Shown here piece after piece: positions 693 to 27,380 of a stretch of 48,536 nt of DNA. Below the pieces are notes generated by a model. It was not told the DNA's origin. It saw only the letters and a list, made by a program, of their open reading frames with translations, and made no database searches. The position numbers were made by a program, and so were the translations under genes. Within the stretch, counting starts at the first letter, position 1; every line of letters begins with the position of its first letter. The stretch spans positions 1 to 48,536 of the forward strand of contig OMST01000056.1 of NCBI GenBank assembly GCA_900313815.1, read 5' to 3'. Source of the DNA: an uncultured Eubacteriales bacterium. Its GTDB lineage: Bacteria; Bacillota_I; Bacilli_A; RF39; UBA660.

Positions 693-1400
693 TTATTTAT
701 TCTTATATTTTTTAATAATTACATTGTAATTTCTTGGATATATAGAGTTTGTATGTCCAACTTTTACATATTCAATTATAGTTCGCTTTGCATTATTTAT
801 TGGTAAATAATATTCATTTATTTTATTTAATTTTAATTCTAATTTTGGCAGTAATTCTTTACTCATAGATATTTCTTCATCACAATTTGCTTTTAAAGGA
901 ACAATTGATCCATTAATTTTAACAGAAGAAACTGCTATTTCAAGTATTATCGGTAATAAAGTAACTGCTCTACATGTTACTATATCAAATTTTTCTTTAT
1001 TATTTTTACTATATATTTCCATTCTATCATTGATAACTATAACATTTTTTAATTCTAGTTCTTTAACTACCTCTTTTAAAAACGTACATTTTTTATTGTT
1101 AGATTCTATTAATGTTACATTAACATTTTTAAATAAGATAGCTATAACTAGTCCAGGAAAACCTGCTCCTGTACCAAAATCACACAATTCTATATTTTTA
1201 TTTAAATTAACATATTTAGATAATAATAATGAATCATAAAAATGTAGTAGAAATACATCCTCTTTTTTTGTTATTGTAGTCATATTGAATTTTTTATTCC
1301 ATTCAATTAATAAGTCATAATATTTCTCTAATAATTCATAATTACTATTTATTTCGATATTTATTTCTTTACATCTTTTTATAAATTCTTCTTTATTCAT
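693..1400 (-). CDS. rsmG: 16S rRNA (guanine(527)-N7)-methyltransferase
   Basis: WNKKFNMT, HFYDSL, DFGTGAGFPG and TCRAV motifs; follows mnmG. Confidence 0.97.
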   Translation of the reverse strand: MNKEEFIKRCKEINIEINSNYELLEKYYDLLIEWNKKFNMTTITKKEDVFLLHFYDSLLLSKYVNLNKNIELCDFGTGAGFPGLVIAILFKNVNVTLIESNNKKCTFLKEVVKELELKNVIVINDRMEIYSKNNKEKFDIVTCRAVTLLPIILEIAVSSVKINGSIVPLKANCDEEISMSKELLPKLELKLNKINEYYLPINNAKRTIIEYVKVGHTNSIYPRNYNVIIKKYKNK

Positions 1401-3255
1401 TATTATATTCCTTTTTTAAATAAACTAATAACATAGTTATATCTGATGGATTAACTCCACTTATTCTAGAAGCTTGACCAATTGTTAATGGTTTTACTTT
1501 TATAAATTTTTGTTTTGCTTCAGTTGCTATATTAGGTACTTTCTCATAATCAATATCATTAGGTATTTTTTTACTTTCAAGTTTTAACATTTTTTCAACC
1601 TCTTGATTTGTTTTATTAATATATCCTTCATATTTAATTTCGGTTTGTACCATATCTGCTATTCTAGAATTGTAATCTTGATTTAAATATTTTAACAATT
1701 TAGTAATCTCAATTTCTGGCCTTTTTAAAATATTCTTTAAGCTTGTTTTTCCGTATAATTGAGAAGACCCATTTTCTTCTAAAAATCTATTAGTATCTGC
1801 AGTTGGTGTTAAATAATTATTATCTAAATATATATTTAATTTATTCATTTCATTAAGAATATTCAAATAAATATTATATTTTTCATCATTAATTAATCCT
1901 ATTTTTCTTCCATATTCTGTTAATCTAATACTGGCATTATCATGTCTTAATAATAATCTAAATTCAGCTCTTGAAGTTAATAATCTATATGGTTCAGTTA
2001 TTCCTTTATTTATTAAATCATCTATTAAAACTCCAATATATGCTTCATTTCTTTTAAGAATAAATGGTTCCTTATTTTTTATTTTTAAAGAAGCGTTAAT
2101 ACCTGCAATTAATCCTTGTGCTGCTGCCTCTTCATATCCACTTGTTCCATTTATTTGACCAGCTGTAAATAAATTAGATATTATTTTATTTTCTAATGTT
2201 AAATTTAATTGTAAAGGATCTATAGCGTCATATTCTATAGCATATCCATATTTTGTTATTTTAACATTATGTAAGCCTTCCATAGTCTTTAACAATTTTT
2301 CTTGGATATCATGTGGCATTGTCGTTGAAAAGCCTCCAACATAGTATTCTATATCATCACTTCTTTCAGGCTCTAAAAATATTTGATGTCTTTCTTTATC
2401 ATTAAATTTTACAACTTTATCTTCTATTGAAGGGCAATATCTTGGTCCTACTCCTTTTATCATTCCACTATATAATGCACATTTATCAAGATTGTCCATT
2501 ATTATCTTATGAGTTTCCTTATTAGTATAAGTTAAATAGCAAGGATATTGTTTATCAATATCATATGTTGCATCATAAAAATTACTAAAAGTTAGTGGTT
2601 CTTTATCTCCTAACTCTATTTGAACTTCATCAAAATTAATACTTTCTTTTAGTATTCTTGGTGGAGTTCCTGTTTTAAGTCTAATTAATTTAATACCATT
2701 TTTTTCTAAGAAAGGACTTAAAAACATAGAATTTTTTTCACCATGAGGTCCACCTTTATATTTTTCATGTCCACACATGATATCAGAATTTAAATAAGTA
2801 CCTGTTGTTAAAATTACAATTTTACTATTTATTTTTTCATTTTCTTCTGTAATTATTCCTTTAGCAGTTTTATTATCAATTATTAATTCTTTTACTGTTG
2901 ACTCTTTTAAATCTAAATTTGGTGTTTCATTTAATGTTTTTAACATTTGTTTTGGGTAATTAACTTTACAACCTTGTGCTCGTAAAGATCTTACACCGGG
3001 ACCTTTTTTAACATTTAACATTTTTATTTGTAAAAGAGTTCTATCTGTACAGTATCCCATTTCTCCACCTAATGCATCTATTTCTCTTACCACTATTCCT
3101 TTAGCACTTCCACCAATAGATGGATTACATGGCATATCAGCTATATTTTTAAAATTTGTTGTAATAAGAAGTGTTTTTATTCCCATTCGGGCACATGCTA
3201 AAGAAGCTTCACATCCTGCGTGACCTCCTCCAACTACTATTACATCATATTCCAT
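1393..3255 (-). CDS. mnmG: tRNA uridine-5-carboxymethylaminomethyl(34) synthesis enzyme
   Basis: VVGGGHAGCEA, MPCNPSIGG, KTGTPPR, GPRYCPSIEDK, AGQINGTSGYEEAAAQG. Start moved to the ATG at 3255 (MEYDVIVVGGG). Confidence 0.98.
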   Translation of the reverse strand: MEYDVIVVGGGHAGCEASLACARMGIKTLLITTNFKNIADMPCNPSIGGSAKGIVVREIDALGGEMGYCTDRTLLQIKMLNVKKGPGVRSLRAQGCKVNYPKQMLKTLNETPNLDLKESTVKELIIDNKTAKGIITEENEKINSKIVILTTGTYLNSDIMCGHEKYKGGPHGEKNSMFLSPFLEKNGIKLIRLKTGTPPRILKESINFDEVQIELGDKEPLTFSNFYDATYDIDKQYPCYLTYTNKETHKIIMDNLDKCALYSGMIKGVGPRYCPSIEDKVVKFNDKERHQIFLEPERSDDIEYYVGGFSTTMPHDIQEKLLKTMEGLHNVKITKYGYAIEYDAIDPLQLNLTLENKIISNLFTAGQINGTSGYEEAAAQGLIAGINASLKIKNKEPFILKRNEAYIGVLIDDLINKGITEPYRLLTSRAEFRLLLRHDNASIRLTEYGRKIGLINDEKYNIYLNILNEMNKLNIYLDNNYLTPTADTNRFLEENGSSQLYGKTSLKNILKRPEIEITKLLKYLNQDYNSRIADMVQTEIKYEGYINKTNQEVEKMLKLESKKIPNDIDYEKVPNIATEAKQKFIKVKPLTIGQASRISGVNPSDITMLLVYLKKEYNNE

Positions 3256-8661: not shown

Positions 8662-9780
8662 ATGAAAATGATTATTGAAAAAAGAATATTAATTGAAAGT
8701 TTAAATTGTGTTAGTAAAGCATTAAGTACAAGAAATATTATTCCTGTATTAAATGGTATTAAATTTGATTTAACAAAAAAAGGTTTATTTTTAACAGCAA
8801 CTGATAATGATATAACTATTCAAACTTTTATAGAAAAAAAGAATATTGCATCTATAGAAGAAGAAGGTTGTTCTATTATATATGGAAAAACTTTATTAAA
8901 TACTATTAGTAAATTGCAAAATGGAATGTTAGAAGTAGAAATATTTGAAAATAATGAAGTAACTTTTAAAACAGAAAATGGTGGTATATATAATTTTCCT
9001 TGCTTTAATAAAGAAGATTTTCCTTCTATAAATTTAGAATTACAAAAGAAACCTTTAGAATTAGATGCATTAAAATTTAGAGAAATTATAAATAATACTA
9101 GTTTTGCATGTTCATTACAAGAAAGTAGACCATTATTAACAGGTGTTAACATTAAAATAATAGGAGATTTATTTGAATGTGTTGCAACTGATTCATATAG
9201 ACTTTCTAAATATAATATAAAAATTAATAAAATTCCTGATGAAAATTTTAATATTGTAGTTCCCGCTAGAAATATTAATGAATTTGTAAAAATAATTAAT
9301 GAAGAAAATGTTGTAGAATTACATGTATTTTCAAATAAATTATTATTAAAATATGGAAATGTTTTATTTCAAACATCTTTATTAAATGGTACATATCCTA
9401 ATACTGATAATTCTATTCCAAAAGAATTTAAATATCAAATTCAAGCTAATTTAAAGGAATTTTATTCTTTGTTAGATACAGCATCATCTTTAACGCAATC
9501 AAAAGATAAAAATATAGTAGATTTAGAAATCAAAGATAATAATTTAATTATAAGTGCGACTAGTTTAGAAGGAAAAGGAAAGGATAAAATAAATATTCAA
9601 AATAAAACAAAGAATAATATAAAAATTTCTTTTAGTGTAAGATATATGTTAGAAGCATTAAAAGTATTTAAAGAAGAAGATATTCAAATATTATTAAATG
9701 GTGAAATAAGTCCTATTATATTAAAAAATTTAAAAAATGAAGAATTAATTGAATTAATTTTACCAATGAAGACATATTAA
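8662..9780 (+). CDS. dnaN: DNA polymerase III beta sliding clamp
   Basis: IIPVLNGIK, ESRPLLTGV, VATDSYRL, LLNGTYP and C-terminal LILPMKTY. Confidence 0.97.
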   Translation: MKMIIEKRILIESLNCVSKALSTRNIIPVLNGIKFDLTKKGLFLTATDNDITIQTFIEKKNIASIEEEGCSIIYGKTLLNTISKLQNGMLEVEIFENNEVTFKTENGGIYNFPCFNKEDFPSINLELQKKPLELDALKFREIINNTSFACSLQESRPLLTGVNIKIIGDLFECVATDSYRLSKYNIKINKIPDENFNIVVPARNINEFVKIINEENVVELHVFSNKLLLKYGNVLFQTSLLNGTYPNTDNSIPKEFKYQIQANLKEFYSLLDTASSLTQSKDKNIVDLEIKDNNLIISATSLEGKGKDKINIQNKTKNNIKISFSVRYMLEALKVFKEEDIQILLNGEISPIILKNLKNEELIELILPMKTY

Positions 9781-9804
9781 AAACGAATTTATTCGTTTTT
9801 TTTT
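9779..9804 (+). terminator. Intrinsic terminator after dnaN
   Basis: AAAAACGAAT-TT-ATTCGTTTTT inverted repeat plus T-run. Confidence 0.75.
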
Positions 9805-9819
9805 ATAAAAAAATATGAA

Positions 9820-9846
9820 TTCGACACTATTCGACAAATTTCGACA
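9820..9846 (+). promoter_or_regulatory. Three tandem Spo0A boxes (TTCGACA, reverse complement of TGTCGAA)
   Basis: TTCGACA at 9820, 9830 and 9840, exact 10-bp period, 54-80 bp upstream of the comK-like ATG. Confidence 0.8.
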
Positions 9847-9899
9847 AACCTATTATGTTATTGTATTAGTCATTATTTAAAGAAAGGGGGAATTCTTAA

Positions 9900-10358
9900 A
9901 TGGATTATGAAATTAATTATGATACTCAGGCTATAATACCTATTTCAGAAACAAGTTGTAAAGTATTAGAAAATAATGAAAAATATATAATTAATTCATC
10001 AGTATTAAGTTTAATGGAACATAGTTGTGAATATTTTGGTAGTTCATTTACTGGAAGAAAAGAAGGAACAAAAAAATTACTTGGTATAACACATAAATCA
10101 CCAATAATAGTTGAAGAAAGTAGAAAAATAATATTCTTTCCAACAACTTCTCCAGATAATATTGAATGTGTATGGATTAATCTTGAAAAAATAGATAAAT
10201 ATTATAGAGTAAGTTCAAAAAAATCTGAGATATTATTTAAAAATGGAAATAGAATAACTATTAATATTTCTTATGGTTCATTATCTAATCAAATATTAAG
10301 ATCAACAAGATTAAAATATATATTAGAAGAAAGAACTGAAAAAAAAGGTGTTTTTTAA
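9900..10358 (+). CDS. comK: ComK-family competence transcription factor
   Basis: YEIN..TQAIIP, SCEYFGSSFTGRKEGT, ITHKSPIIV and FFPTTSP...CVWI match the ComK pattern SCxFFGSSyxGRKxGT / HKPPI / FPT..CxWI. Confidence 0.88.
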   Translation: MDYEINYDTQAIIPISETSCKVLENNEKYIINSSVLSLMEHSCEYFGSSFTGRKEGTKKLLGITHKSPIIVEESRKIIFFPTTSPDNIECVWINLEKIDKYYRVSSKKSEILFKNGNRITINISYGSLSNQILRSTRLKYILEERTEKKGVF

Positions 10359-10396: not shown

Positions 10397-10462
10397 TAAT
10401 ATGTGTGTAGGTGACCGAGAAAATATTAAAAATTAAAATTAAGGTTAAAAATGAGGTCTAAA

Positions 10463-11548
10463 ATGAATATTACAAAAATTGAACTACTTAATTTTAGAAA
10501 TTATACAAAAAAAATCTTTGATAATTTTACTAACTTAAATATCATAATTGGAAAAAATGGAATTGGTAAGACAAGTATTTTAGAAGCAATATATTTAGGG
10601 AGTTTGGCTAAATCTTTTAAAACAAATATTGAAACATCTGTTATAAAAGAAGGGCAATCATTTTATAAATTAAAGATTACTTATTTTGATTATGGTCCTA
10701 AAAAAAATATAGAAATATATTTAGATAAATCAGGAAAGAAAACGAAAATAAATGGTAAATTACAAAGTAAATTAAGTGATTTTATTTCTCAATATAGAAT
10801 TATATTATTATCTCCGGATGAATTAAAATTAATAAAATCATCACCAAATACACGAAGAAATTATCTTAATATAGAAATTTCTCAATTACATAAAGAATAT
10901 ATATATTATTTAAACAATTATAATAATCTAATAAAAAATAAAAATGATTTTTTAAAAAAATTAATGATAAATGGAAATTTAGATGATAGATATTTAGATG
11001 TAATTGATCAAAAAATAGTTTCTGAAGGATTAAAAATATATGAATTTAGGAAAAAATATATTGATTCTATTAATGATAATATAAATAGTATTTTTAATAA
11101 ATATGTAAGTAATCAAAATTTATATATAAAATACGAATCAGATTATGAAATAAATGATAGTGAGAAATTATTAAAAATATTAAAAAAGAATAGAAAAAAA
11201 GAAATTAATATAGGTATGACTGATTTTGGGGTTCATAGAGATGATCTTTCATTTATATATAATGGTAATTCTGCAAAAGAATATAGCTCTCAAGGTACTC
11301 AAAAATTAATAGTGCTCGCAATGAAATTAGCTGAAGTTAAAATATTTATTAATAAATACAATATATATCCTATATTATTGTTAGATGATTTATTCAGTGA
11401 ATTAGACATGAAAAATAGAAATAATATATTTAAATCATTGGATGATAATATTCAAATATTTATAACAACAACTGATTTAAAAAATATTAATAAAAATATA
11501 ATTAAAAAAGCAAAAATATATAATTTAGATGAGAAGGTGAAAAAATGA
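10463..11548 (+). CDS. recF: DNA replication/repair protein RecF
   Basis: [36 protein letters not shown]. Start 10463 follows GAGG (alternative start 10451). Confidence 0.96.
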
Positions 11549-26885: not shown

Positions 26886-27380
26886 TTGAATACTAGTGGA
26901 ATCATTCGAAAAATAGATGATTTGGGAAGAATTGTTTTACCAAAAGAATTAAGAAAATATTTAAATATTAATACTGGCGATGATTTTCAAATATCATTAG
27001 AAGATGAAAAAATAATATTAGAAAAATATTCATATATTAAAAGTAATCAAAACGAAATAATTAAAATAATTTCAAGCTTTATTAAAATTACTAATGTCAA
27101 TTTTAGATTAATAGTAAATAATAGAATAGTGACTACTGGTGAAAAGATAGAATCTAAAATAATAGATATTATTAATGATAGAAAAATATTTATAGATGAA
27201 GATATTAAAAACTATGAGTTGATTTCATGTAACTATGAAAACGGGAAATTAATAATATATCCAATTGTATTAAATAGCGATTTATATGGAGCAATTGTTG
27301 TAGTGCATAATCATGATACTAAAACAGTTTTAGAATACTTAAAAATTATTTATGATATAATTAAAAACAAATATATATAA
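26886..27380 (+). CDS. spoVT: Stage V sporulation protein T (AbrB-like N-terminus plus GAF-like C-terminus)
   Basis: GIIRKIDDLGRIVLPKELR and PIVLNSDLYGAIV; directly after mfd. TTG start at 26886 after GGTGA (alternative GTG 26877). Confidence 0.8.
   Translation: MNTSGIIRKIDDLGRIVLPKELRKYLNINTGDDFQISLEDEKIILEKYSYIKSNQNEIIKIISSFIKITNVNFRLIVNNRIVTTGEKIESKIIDIINDRKIFIDEDIKNYELISCNYENGKLIIYPIVLNSDLYGAIVVVHNHDTKTVLEYLKIIYDIIKNKYI

What the first reader, a model, noticed from the sequence alone, without database searches (positions are those of the whole stretch)
9820..9900. Three perfect, helically phased Spo0A boxes upstream of comK
Seen: TTCGACA three times at exact 10-bp spacing between the dnaN terminator and comK, a striking CG-containing motif in such AT-rich DNA. 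Known: TGTCGAA is the consensus 0A box, and tandem boxes in this orientation overlapping the -35 region occur at Spo0A-activated promoters such as spoIIG. The middle TCGACA lies 22 bp from a TG-extended TATTGT (9859). I saw no clear ComK AT-box pair. Inference: a simplified circuit where Spo0A~P directly switches on ComK, coupling competence or a repurposed ComK regulon to sporulation entry. This is my best candidate for an undescribed regulatory system here.
Basis: partly seen in the sequence, partly recalled or inferred. Interest (0 to 1): 0.8.

Follow-up and report, generated by a model that had tools for sequence, protein, structure and literature searches.

The report
Conserved Spo0A box array before comK
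Three perfect binding sites for the sporulation master regulator Spo0A sit where the -35 element of the comK promoter should be, conserved across a group of uncultured gut bacteria, so sporulation signalling probably controls this competence-regulator gene directly, as is already known in weaker form in Bacillus subtilis.

Summary
TTCGACA stands at 9820, 9830 and 9840, between the dnaN terminator and a Pfam-confirmed comK. It lies 12 nt upstream of a TRTG-extended -10 (TATG-T-TATTGT, 9854-9864), and there is no -35 hexamer.

The array is conserved. Of 44 distinct genus-level comK promoters, 28 carry the perfect triple, and the flanking sequence varies.

The heptamer is very probably the Spo0A box:
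- spo0A is present (48 of 50 genus genomes), and its recognition helix is identical to that of B. subtilis Spo0A.
- One perfect box precedes spoIIGA-sigE in 29 of 29 orthologues and a sirA-like gene in 30 of 30.
- The one genus member without a spo0A match keeps comK but has no boxes.

Tandem perfect boxes occur almost only at comK and at an orphan histidine kinase.

Direct Spo0A~P control of comK is already published for B. subtilis (PMC3297582). The sign of regulation is also unresolved. I favour activation (about 0.5) over repression (about 0.33).

Verdict: a new variant of a known kind, of moderate interest.

The parts
8662..9780 (+). dnaN (DNA polymerase III beta), the upstream neighbour
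   Evidence: All three Pfam beta-clamp domains are found. dnaN lies upstream of comK in 76 of 80 public relatives.
9779..9804 (+). Hairpin (9779-9800) whose 3' arm runs into a U tract ending at 9804: the likely dnaN terminator
   Evidence: Folds at -6 kcal/mol, z -2.09. The strict scan, which needs at least 3 G-C pairs, did not call it.
9820..9826 (+). 0A box 1 (TTCGACA, which is TGTCGAA on the other strand), about -51 to -45
   Evidence: Every position is at least 90% conserved in 39 anchored genus-level promoters.
9830..9836 (+). 0A box 2, about -41 to -35, 22 nt upstream of the -10 hexamer
   Evidence: Positions are 80-90+% conserved. This is the box most often degenerate in orthologues.
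9840..9846 (+). 0A box 3, about -31 to -25, 12 nt upstream of the -10 hexamer; the best-conserved box
   Evidence: Every position is at least 90% conserved. A 9-nt gap to TG was the criterion on which 39 of 44 genus-level comK promoters could be anchored, and it is seen by eye at the kinase promoters.
9854..9864 (+). TRTG-extended -10 element (TATG, T, TATTGT) of a sigma-A-type promoter without a -35 hexamer
   Evidence: Sequence. TG and TAnnAT are at least 90% conserved in 39 anchored promoters. The position 17 nt upstream reads AAATTT. Naming it a TRTG -16 motif is recalled knowledge.
9883..9890 (+). Shine-Dalgarno sequence AAAGGGGG
   Evidence: Sequence. Conserved in orthologues.
9900..10358 (+). 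comK homologue, 152 aa
   Evidence: Pfam PF06338, E 1.4e-44, 151.9 bits against a cut-off of 22.3, covering 3-151 of 152 profile positions.
10451..11548 (+). recF, the downstream neighbour
   Evidence: Pfam SMC_N. recF lies downstream of comK in 74 of 80 public relatives.

Best explanation
The three heptamers form a head-to-tail array of consensus Spo0A binding sites (0A boxes). The array takes the place of the -35 region of a sigma-A promoter for comK that has a TRTG-extended -10. When the orphan sporulation kinase phosphorylates Spo0A, three Spo0A~P molecules are expected to bind cooperatively on one face of the helix, from about -51 to -25, and to set comK transcription directly. I think the most likely sign is activation. 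In that case comK and the kinase gene, which carries the same array, would be the highest-affinity, earliest-responding tier of the Spo0A regulon in this clade of small-genome, uncultured gut Bacilli.

Shown: the sequence, its conservation, the presence of Spo0A, and the co-occurrence of the box with sporulation genes.

Inferred: Spo0A binding, the promoter assignment and the sign of regulation.
For: Motif identity:
- The heptamer is the exact complement of the published core TGTCGAA (PMC3485338; PMC2731898).
- Seven bp plus a 3-bp spacer is the spacing of tandem 0A boxes footprinted in phage Nf (PMC2731898).
- Spo0A's DNA-binding domain binds direct repeats as an asymmetric dimer in structure 1LQ1 (PMC3358323).

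Factor:
- spo0A is present as a 254-aa gene with Response_reg and Spo0A_C domains.
- Its C-terminal domain aligns to 1LQ1 at E 2e-41, with the stretch RVERAIRHAIEV identical.
- Spo0A_C is found in 48 of 50 genus genomes and in 44 of 45 more distant relatives.

Regulon context in the same genomes:
- One perfect, co-oriented box precedes spoIIGA-sigE in 29 of 29 usable orthologous loci.
- One precedes a sirA-like gene in 30 of 30. SirA is produced under Spo0A~P control in B. subtilis (PMC4285326).
- In the window's genome, 14 of 32 perfect boxes are intergenic although only 7.5% of the genome lies outside long ORFs. They include sites upstream of spoIIP and the orphan kinase.

Conservation:
- 28 of 44 distinct genus-level comK promoters have the perfect triple. 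Heptamer columns are 80-90+% conserved, while the 9-nt spacer is 30-50% conserved in its middle.
- The pattern TTCGACANNNTTCGACA occurs in 38 of 50 genus genomes. The reversed control occurs in 0 of 50.
- Of 43 distinct tandem sites, 32 are at comK, 10 at the kinase (one of these a weak match) and 1 at a sigma-factor gene.

Natural loss:
- G063 (same genus, 93% complete) has no match to Spo0A_C, SpoIIGA, the sirA-like gene or the kinase.
- It keeps dnaN-comK but has no boxes there.

For activation specifically:
- The boxes have the same orientation as at spoIIG and the sirA-like gene.
- The distance to the -10 looks fixed across the genus at two unrelated genes. Every comK and kinase promoter I read shows 9 nt to TG. 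By eye it is 8 nt in many more distant relatives. cannot test this, because it anchored promoters on that very spacing.
- No -35 hexamer is present.
- Positive feedback on a sporulation kinase is the biologically coherent design. This last point is inference.
Against: - No binding or expression data exist. The public runs held only contigs and showed nothing about transcripts.
- The geometry differs from the spoIIG and sirA-like promoters of the same genomes, where a single box lies 21 nt from the -10. At comK the best-conserved box lies in the spacer, 12 nt from the -10, where sigma region 4 would normally sit.
- Published cases of 0A boxes overlapping a core promoter are repressive: the Nf and phi29 A2c promoters (PMC2731898) and site R1 at B. 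subtilis comK (PMC3297582).
- A TRTG-extended -10 may give basal activity without an activator.
- G063 kept comK, with a TG-preceded TAGTCT hexamer ahead of it, after losing spo0A. comK expression therefore need not depend on Spo0A.
- Four of the 44 genus-level promoters have no perfect box although their genomes have spo0A.
Confidence: 0.5

Rival explanations
1. The boxes are the same Spo0A~P array, but it acts as an operator. comK and the kinase gene are transcribed from the extended -10 promoter during growth. They are shut off as soon as Spo0A~P appears, because three Spo0A molecules across -51 to -25 keep RNA polymerase off the promoter.
For: - The array covers the -35 position and part of the spacer.
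- Two boxes 3 bp apart that overlap the core promoter repress the phage Nf and phi29 A2c promoters by preventing polymerase binding (PMC2731898).
- Site R1, overlapping the -35 of B. subtilis comK, represses (PMC3297582).
- The promoter-proximal box is the best conserved, more so than the box at the spoIIG-like position.
- The known-activated promoter types in these genomes use a different geometry, 21 nt from the -10.
- The TG-extended -10 could work without an activator. G063 keeps comK without spo0A and without boxes.
Against: - Simple occlusion needs neither a fixed orientation nor a fixed distance, yet both look constant wherever I read them, at two unrelated genes across the genus.
- No -35 hexamer exists to give a strong basal promoter.
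- Negative feedback on the only evident sporulation kinase is a less usual design for a developmental switch (inference).
- The one box placed like a roadblock at +1, upstream of a ttcA-like gene, is not conserved: 1 of 30.
Confidence: 0.33
2. The direct repeats are bound by a different regulator, for example another response regulator that reads direct repeats. The match to the 0A box would then be coincidental.
For: - Response regulators of the OmpR/PhoB type bind phased direct repeats that replace the -35. This is recalled knowledge.
- No binding experiment exists.
- The kinase that carries the same array has no adjacent regulator gene, so its partner is not identified.
Against: - The heptamer is an exact match to the Spo0A core, and the period is 10, not 11.
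- The same heptamer sits at spoIIGA (29 of 29) and the sirA-like gene (30 of 30), both classic Spo0A targets.
- The genus member without spo0A lacks the boxes at comK.
Confidence: 0.08
3. The array serves replication control rather than transcription. Spo0A~P would bind next to the origin region (dnaA-dnaN) to help block initiation at the onset of sporulation.
For: - In B. subtilis Spo0A~P binds 0A boxes at oriC (cited in PMC4285326).
- Phage phi29 origins carry four consecutive boxes (PMC2731898).
- The array lies about 1.2 kb from the dnaA-dnaN intergenic region.
Against: - The same array, at the same distance from an extended -10, precedes the kinase gene on another contig.
- There are no other perfect boxes around dnaA or dnaN.
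- The array is locked in register with a promoter element.
Confidence: 0.04

Closest known systems
Direct Spo0A~P control of the B. subtilis comK promoter (Mirouze et al. 2012, PMC3297582; passages read)
   Same: The regulator is the same and the target gene family is the same. The regulator binds directly to several 0A boxes around the promoter, and three boxes lie in the upstream group.
   Different: - In B. subtilis the five sites are imperfect, with 1-2 mismatches each. They are split into upstream activating sites (A1-A3) and separate repressing sites (R1 over the -35, and R2), and they work alongside ComK boxes and Rok.
- Here there is one contiguous array of three perfect boxes in 10-bp register, taking the place of the -35.
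- No A4N5T4 ComK box lies in the promoter.
- Rok was not examined.
spoIIG-type Spo0A-activated sigma-A promoters
   Same: The box orientation is the same on the coding strand. Box 2 lies 22 nt from the -10, close to the 21 nt seen at spoIIGA and sirA-like promoters of the same genus.
   Different: - Those promoters have a single box and no TG extension.
- comK adds a box 12 nt from the -10 and another 32 nt away.
- Details of the B. subtilis spoIIG promoter are recalled only. The paper was not held.
Tandem 0A boxes at phage phi29 and Nf early promoter A2c and at phi29 origins (PMC2731898)
   Same: The boxes are separated by 3 bp, they overlap part of a core promoter, and arrays of up to four consecutive boxes occur.
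   Different: Those are phage sites that repress transcription or block replication, and the Nf boxes are imperfect. Here the array is chromosomal, perfect, and conserved at two host genes.
Pho-box promoters of PhoB and PhoP
   Same: Phased direct repeats for a response regulator on the coding strand replace the -35 and end about 10 nt from the -10. In those systems this arrangement activates.
   Different: The regulator family, the repeat sequence and the period (11 bp) are all different. This is a functional analogy only.

Membership tests
0A box (Spo0A binding site) | Match to the 7-bp core TGTCGAA | tested here: met
   Three exact matches on the complementary strand at 9820, 9830 and 9840. 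The core is as given in PMC3485338 and PMC2731898.
0A box (Spo0A binding site) | Spo0A encoded in the genome with a conserved DNA-binding domain | tested here: met
   Spo0A_C at E 1e-37 plus a receiver domain. The alignment to 1LQ1 is E 2e-41, with RVERAIRHAIEV identical. Found in 48 of 50 genus genomes.
0A box (Spo0A binding site) | The same motif at canonical Spo0A target genes of the same organism | tested here: met
   spoIIGA-sigE in 29 of 29 orthologous loci and the sirA-like gene in 30 of 30. Also spoIIP and a spoIIAA-like gene in the window's genome.
0A box (Spo0A binding site) | Physical binding by Spo0A~P and Spo0A-dependent expression | not testable with these tools
The public runs held contigs only.
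ComK (Pfam PF06338) | Profile score above the curated cut-off over the full domain | tested here: met
   151.9 bits against a cut-off of 22.3, covering 3-151 of 152 profile positions. No NCBIfam model matched.
ComK as competence master regulator | ComK boxes (paired A4N5T4) at its own promoter and at DNA-uptake genes | tested here: inconclusive
   No A4N5T4 in the comK promoter. Paired boxes genome-wide number 10, against 6-15 in shuffles. ComEC and two T2SSE ATPases are present. DprA was not found in a genome that is 67.5% complete.
spoIIG-type Spo0A-activated promoter | Box at the -35-like position about 21-22 nt from the -10, with the spacer left free | tested here: not met
   Box 2 is 22 nt from the -10, but box 3 occupies the spacer 12 nt from it. 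The genus's own spoIIG and sirA-like promoters have one box at 21 nt.
B. subtilis-type comK gate (separate activating and repressing Spo0A sites) | Distinct upstream activator sites and promoter-overlapping operator sites of lower affinity | tested here: not met
   There is a single contiguous array of identical perfect boxes. No further perfect box exists in the window.

The most novel reading that the evidence does not exclude
In this clade of uncultured, small-genome gut spore-formers, the multi-input comK circuit of Bacillus has collapsed into a single input. comK, fixed in the origin-proximal dnaN-recF slot, and the orphan sporulation kinase together would form the top-affinity tier of the Spo0A regulon. 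DNA uptake, or whatever ComK now controls, would then be switched obligatorily with the very first Spo0A~P, without ComK autoregulation. Competence would be an early step of the sporulation programme rather than an alternative fate.
Probability: 0.3. Interest if true: 0.6.

Novelty: new variant of a known kind. Interest (0 to 1): 0.45.

Why it matters
It gives a concrete, testable wiring diagram for organisms that have never been cultured. One master regulator, one perfect operator array and two top-tier targets (a kinase and ComK) are conserved across dozens of gut species. If Spo0A~P switches comK on, gene uptake in these abundant gut spore-formers would be tied to the entry into sporulation. 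That bears on when and how they exchange DNA. The contrast between one box at 21 nt (spoIIG, sirA-like) and a phased array at 12, 22 and 32 nt (comK, kinase) is also a natural experiment on how Spo0A box position sets promoter response.

Tried and rejected
- **Chance or simple duplication: rejected.** There are only 32 boxes in 1.03 Mb. The spacers differ. The heptamers are conserved while the flanks vary. The reversed control pattern occurs in 0 of 50 genomes.
- **Structured RNA in the leader: nothing found.** The only Rfam hit was a sub-threshold CRISPR-repeat match at E 0.39.
- **Expression evidence: none obtained.** One search found six runs, all kept as contigs with small shares of the stretch. 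Laying three of them gave short pieces and no transcript ends. No support either way.
- **An AbrB-type repressed promoter as an in-genome example of repression: not found.** One AbrB-domain match is a 176-aa open frame at window 26904, and I only guess that it is SpoVT-like. The other is a small gene ahead of an ABC transporter with no boxes nearby.
- **spo0A's own upstream region:** it shows only weak ACA-containing repeats and no perfect box.
- **A second class of boxes at +1 in the opposite orientation (ttcA-like and mnmA genes) as conserved repression sites: rejected for the ttcA-like gene.** Conserved in 1 of 30. The mnmA site was not tested.
- **B. subtilis-type ComK boxes genome-wide: at chance level**.
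- **Correlating box loss with spo0A loss across distant relatives: too few cases.** Only one lineage without spo0A was available, so this is a single case, and no genome here is complete.
- **The orientation and positions of boxes at B. subtilis spoIIG could not be verified.** The paper was not held. Two searches gave no passage with those details, so what I say about them is recalled.
- **Not in print, as far as I searched.** (terms Spo0A, comK promoter, 0A box; ComK, Spo0A, Erysipelotrich) found no description of this array in these organisms. Supplementary files were not consulted.

Full report
**The observation**

The window reads ...GAATTCGACACTATTCGACAAATTTCGACAAACCTATTATGTTATTGTATTAG.... 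TTCGACA starts at 9820, 9830 and 9840 on the + strand, and these are the only three copies in the window on either strand. The whole 1.03-Mb, 26% G+C genome holds 32 copies. By my arithmetic a phased triple is expected about 1e-8 times per genome.

The array lies between two features:
- Upstream is the end of dnaN (9780), followed by a hairpin at 9779-9800 that runs into a U tract ending at 9804. It folds at -6 kcal/mol, and the strict scan did not call it a terminator.
- Downstream is a 152-aa ORF at 9900-10358 that is a full-length ComK by Pfam (E 1.4e-44).

The gene order is dnaA, dnaN, comK, recF, and then two ORFs that I take from their position and size to be gyrB and gyrA.

Nine bases after box 3 comes TG (9856-9857), preceded by TA to give TATG. 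One base later comes TATTGT (9859-9864). The hexamer 17 nt upstream reads AAATTT, so there is no -35.

**Conservation**

A ComK search of relatives found an orthologue in 21 of 24 other genomes of the same genus, nearly always directly after dnaN.

The counts were as follows.

| Perfect boxes | ComK identity at least 57% (44 sequences) | More distant (40 sequences) |
|---|---|---|
| Triple, in phase | 28 | 1 |
| Double, in phase | 3 | 1 |
| Two, not adjacent | 6 | 2 |
| One | 3 | 14 |
| None | 4 | 22 |

In the genus-level set the two non-adjacent boxes flank a degenerate middle box.

In 39 promoters anchored on the -10, every heptamer column is 80-90+% conserved, and so are TG and TAnnAT. The middle of the 9-nt spacer is only 30-50% conserved. 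Selection therefore acts on the boxes and on their distance to the -10, not on the region as a whole.

Many orthologues add a fourth, degenerate box (TTTTACA) one turn further upstream. The window itself does not.

The public relatives are all uncultured gut metagenome-assembled genomes. They are labelled variously as Bacilli, Erysipelotrichaceae, Mollicutes, Tenericutes or Clostridium sp. CAG. Among them dnaN-comK-recF synteny is widespread: dnaN in 76 of 80 and recF in 74 of 80.

**Is it a Spo0A site?**

The published core is TGTCGAA (PMC3485338; PMC2731898), which is the exact complement of TTCGACA. Tandem boxes separated by 3 bp are a footprinted arrangement (PMC2731898). The Spo0A DNA-binding domain binds direct repeats as an asymmetric dimer in structure 1LQ1 (PMC3358323).

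The genome encodes a 254-aa Spo0A with receiver and Spo0A_C domains. Its C-terminal domain aligns with 1LQ1 at E 2e-41, with the stretch RVERAIRHAIEV identical. Spo0A_C is found in 48 of 50 genus genomes and in 44 of 45 more distant relatives.

The box marks canonical Spo0A targets in these same genomes:
- A single perfect, co-oriented box precedes spoIIGA-sigE in 29 of 29 usable orthologous loci. The thirtieth locus is cut by a contig end.
- A single perfect box precedes a sirA-like gene in 30 of 30. That gene matches Pfam SirA over its full length at E 0.002, below the cut-off. It sits next to a UPF0154 gene. I recall that sirA lies beside such a gene (yneF) in B. subtilis. SirA is made under Spo0A~P control in B. 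subtilis (PMC4285326).

In the window's genome 14 of 32 boxes are intergenic, although only 7.5% of the genome lies outside ORFs of 90 aa or more. Eleven boxes, at eight promoters, are co-oriented with a gene start within 120 nt. Those eight are spoIIP, spoIIGA, the kinase, comK, the sirA-like gene, murT and two genes of unknown function.

One genus member, G063 (0.7 Mb, 93% complete), shows what happens when the factor is lost:
- It gave no match to Spo0A_C, SpoIIGA, the sirA-like protein or the kinase.
- It keeps dnaN-comK, but the boxes are gone.
- It has only five TTCGACA genome-wide.

This is a single lineage in an incomplete genome, so I count it as supportive only.

**The tandem-box regulon**

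The pattern TTCGACANNNTTCGACA occurs in 38 of 50 genus genomes. The reversed control occurs in none. The matches collapse to 43 distinct sites:
- 32 lie upstream of comK: 25 identified and 7 already known.
- 10 lie upstream of an orphan membrane histidine kinase with HisKA and HATPase_c domains. No regulator gene sits beside it. One of the ten is a weak match to a partial ORF.
- 1 lies upstream of a SigK/SigE-like sigma gene.

The kinase promoters have the same geometry as comK: last box, 9 nt, TG, one base, TAnnAT. comK and the probable sporulation kinase thus share a promoter design that the other Spo0A targets lack.

**Activation or repression**

Two promoter classes can be told apart in this genus.
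- Class A (spoIIGA, the sirA-like gene, and spoIIP in the window's genome): one box, then 21 nt, then a TAWAAT-type -10, with no TG extension. The B. subtilis counterparts of spoIIG and sirA are Spo0A-activated, so I read class A as the activating geometry.
- Class B (comK and the kinase): two to four boxes at 12, 22, 32 (and 42) nt from a TRTG-extended -10.

Four points favour activation of class B:
- The box orientation is the same as in class A.
- The distance to the -10 looks fixed at two unrelated genes across the genus. Every promoter I read has 9 nt. By eye it is 8 nt in many distant relatives. The anchoring presupposes this spacing, so it cannot test it.
- There is no -35 hexamer.
- Activation would fit the biology: positive feedback on the kinase, and the low-threshold opening of competence described for B. 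subtilis (PMC3297582).

The arrangement also resembles pho-box promoters, where phased repeats replace the -35 and activate. That comparison is recalled and is an analogy only.

Four points favour repression:
- The best-conserved box sits in the spacer, where sigma region 4 would lie.
- Every published case I could read of 0A boxes overlapping a core promoter is repressive: Nf and phi29 A2c (PMC2731898) and R1 at B. subtilis comK (PMC3297582).
- An extended -10 can work alone.
- G063 kept comK without Spo0A.

I put Spo0A binding at about 0.88. Within that, activation is about 0.5 overall and repression about 0.33. The sequence cannot settle the sign.

**Comparison with what is known, and novelty**

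Direct Spo0A~P binding to the comK promoter is established in B. subtilis. That promoter has five imperfect sites split into activating and repressing groups, alongside ComK boxes and Rok (PMC3297582).

Several things are new here:
- the architecture: three perfect boxes in one phased array taking the place of the -35;
- the absence of a recognisable ComK box;
- the same design at an orphan kinase;
- its conservation across dozens of uncultured gut species, in a fixed dnaN-comK-recF slot.

My literature searches found no description of this array.

The genome has ComEC and two type II/IV secretion ATPases. DprA was not found in this 67.5%-complete genome. A DNA-uptake role for ComK is therefore plausible but untested.

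I rate this a new variant of a known kind, with interest 0.45.

Noticed in passing
G000:C12:4026 (L033/L037) and orthologous loci L038-L066: The single 0A box of the spoIIGA-sigE promoter sits in the loop of the upstream gene's terminator hairpin. The stem sequence differs between species but stays complementary, and the T-run leads straight into the -10 (29 of 29 loci). Terminator and Spo0A site are thus superimposed.
   Followed up: partly
G000:C13:17761-17777 (L031/L078) and L073, L075, L082, L084, L086, L093, L097, L099: An orphan membrane histidine kinase (391 aa) carries two or three perfect 0A boxes with the same spacing to an extended -10 as comK. It is absent from the spo0A-less genome G063. 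It is a candidate sporulation kinase under Spo0A feedback.
   Followed up: partly
G000:C44:47435-47882 (L189) and L225-L253: A 134-aa gene weakly matches Pfam SirA over its full length (E 0.002, below the cut-off) and lies next to a UPF0154 gene. It has a perfect co-oriented 0A box in 30 of 30 orthologues. It is a probable SirA counterpart outside Bacillus.
   Followed up: partly
G063 (L186; same upstream sequence as L149/G071): This 0.7-Mb member of the genus (93% complete) has no match to Spo0A_C, SpoIIGA, the sirA-like gene or the kinase, but it retains comK. In place of the 0A boxes its promoter has two TTCGTGCAC repeats 21 bp apart. It may be a lineage that has lost sporulation.
   Followed up: partly
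G088, G094, G104 (genomes of L166, L172, L182): In some distant relatives the Spo0A_C match lies in open frames of only 118-143 aa, with weaker scores (E 1e-20 to 4e-22). These may be receiver-less Spo0A-like proteins or fragmented genes.
   Followed up: no
L001 2356-3258 (-), G000:C48: The gene directly upstream of spo0A encodes a 300-aa protein whose N-terminus looks to me like a prepilin-type leader with a hydrophobic helix. It may be a type IV pilin or a competence pseudopilin. No family search was run on it.
   Followed up: no
window 26904-27038: An AbrB/MazE-type domain (PF04014, E 1e-10) lies at the start of a 176-aa open frame inside the window. I guess it is SpoVT-like.
   Followed up: no
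L072 (G044:C34), 796-1458 (-): In one species a SigK/SigE-like sigma factor gene (below the NCBIfam cut-offs, and starting at profile position 26-28) has two perfect 0A boxes. The proximal box is 21 nt from a TATTAT -10, which is the spoIIG-type geometry.
   Followed up: partly
spoIIGA, kinase, spoIIP and sirA-like promoters: The -10 hexamers lie only 6-7 nt from the GGTGA ribosome-binding sequence. The predicted mRNAs would therefore start at or just before the Shine-Dalgarno sequence, giving very short leaders.
   Followed up: no
G007:C1 (L023, L030, L074): This single-contig 1.5-Mb genome shows many in-frame stops in comK, spo0A, spoIIGA and the sirA-like gene, and its completeness is 45%. 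This looks more like assembly error than gene decay.
   Followed up: no
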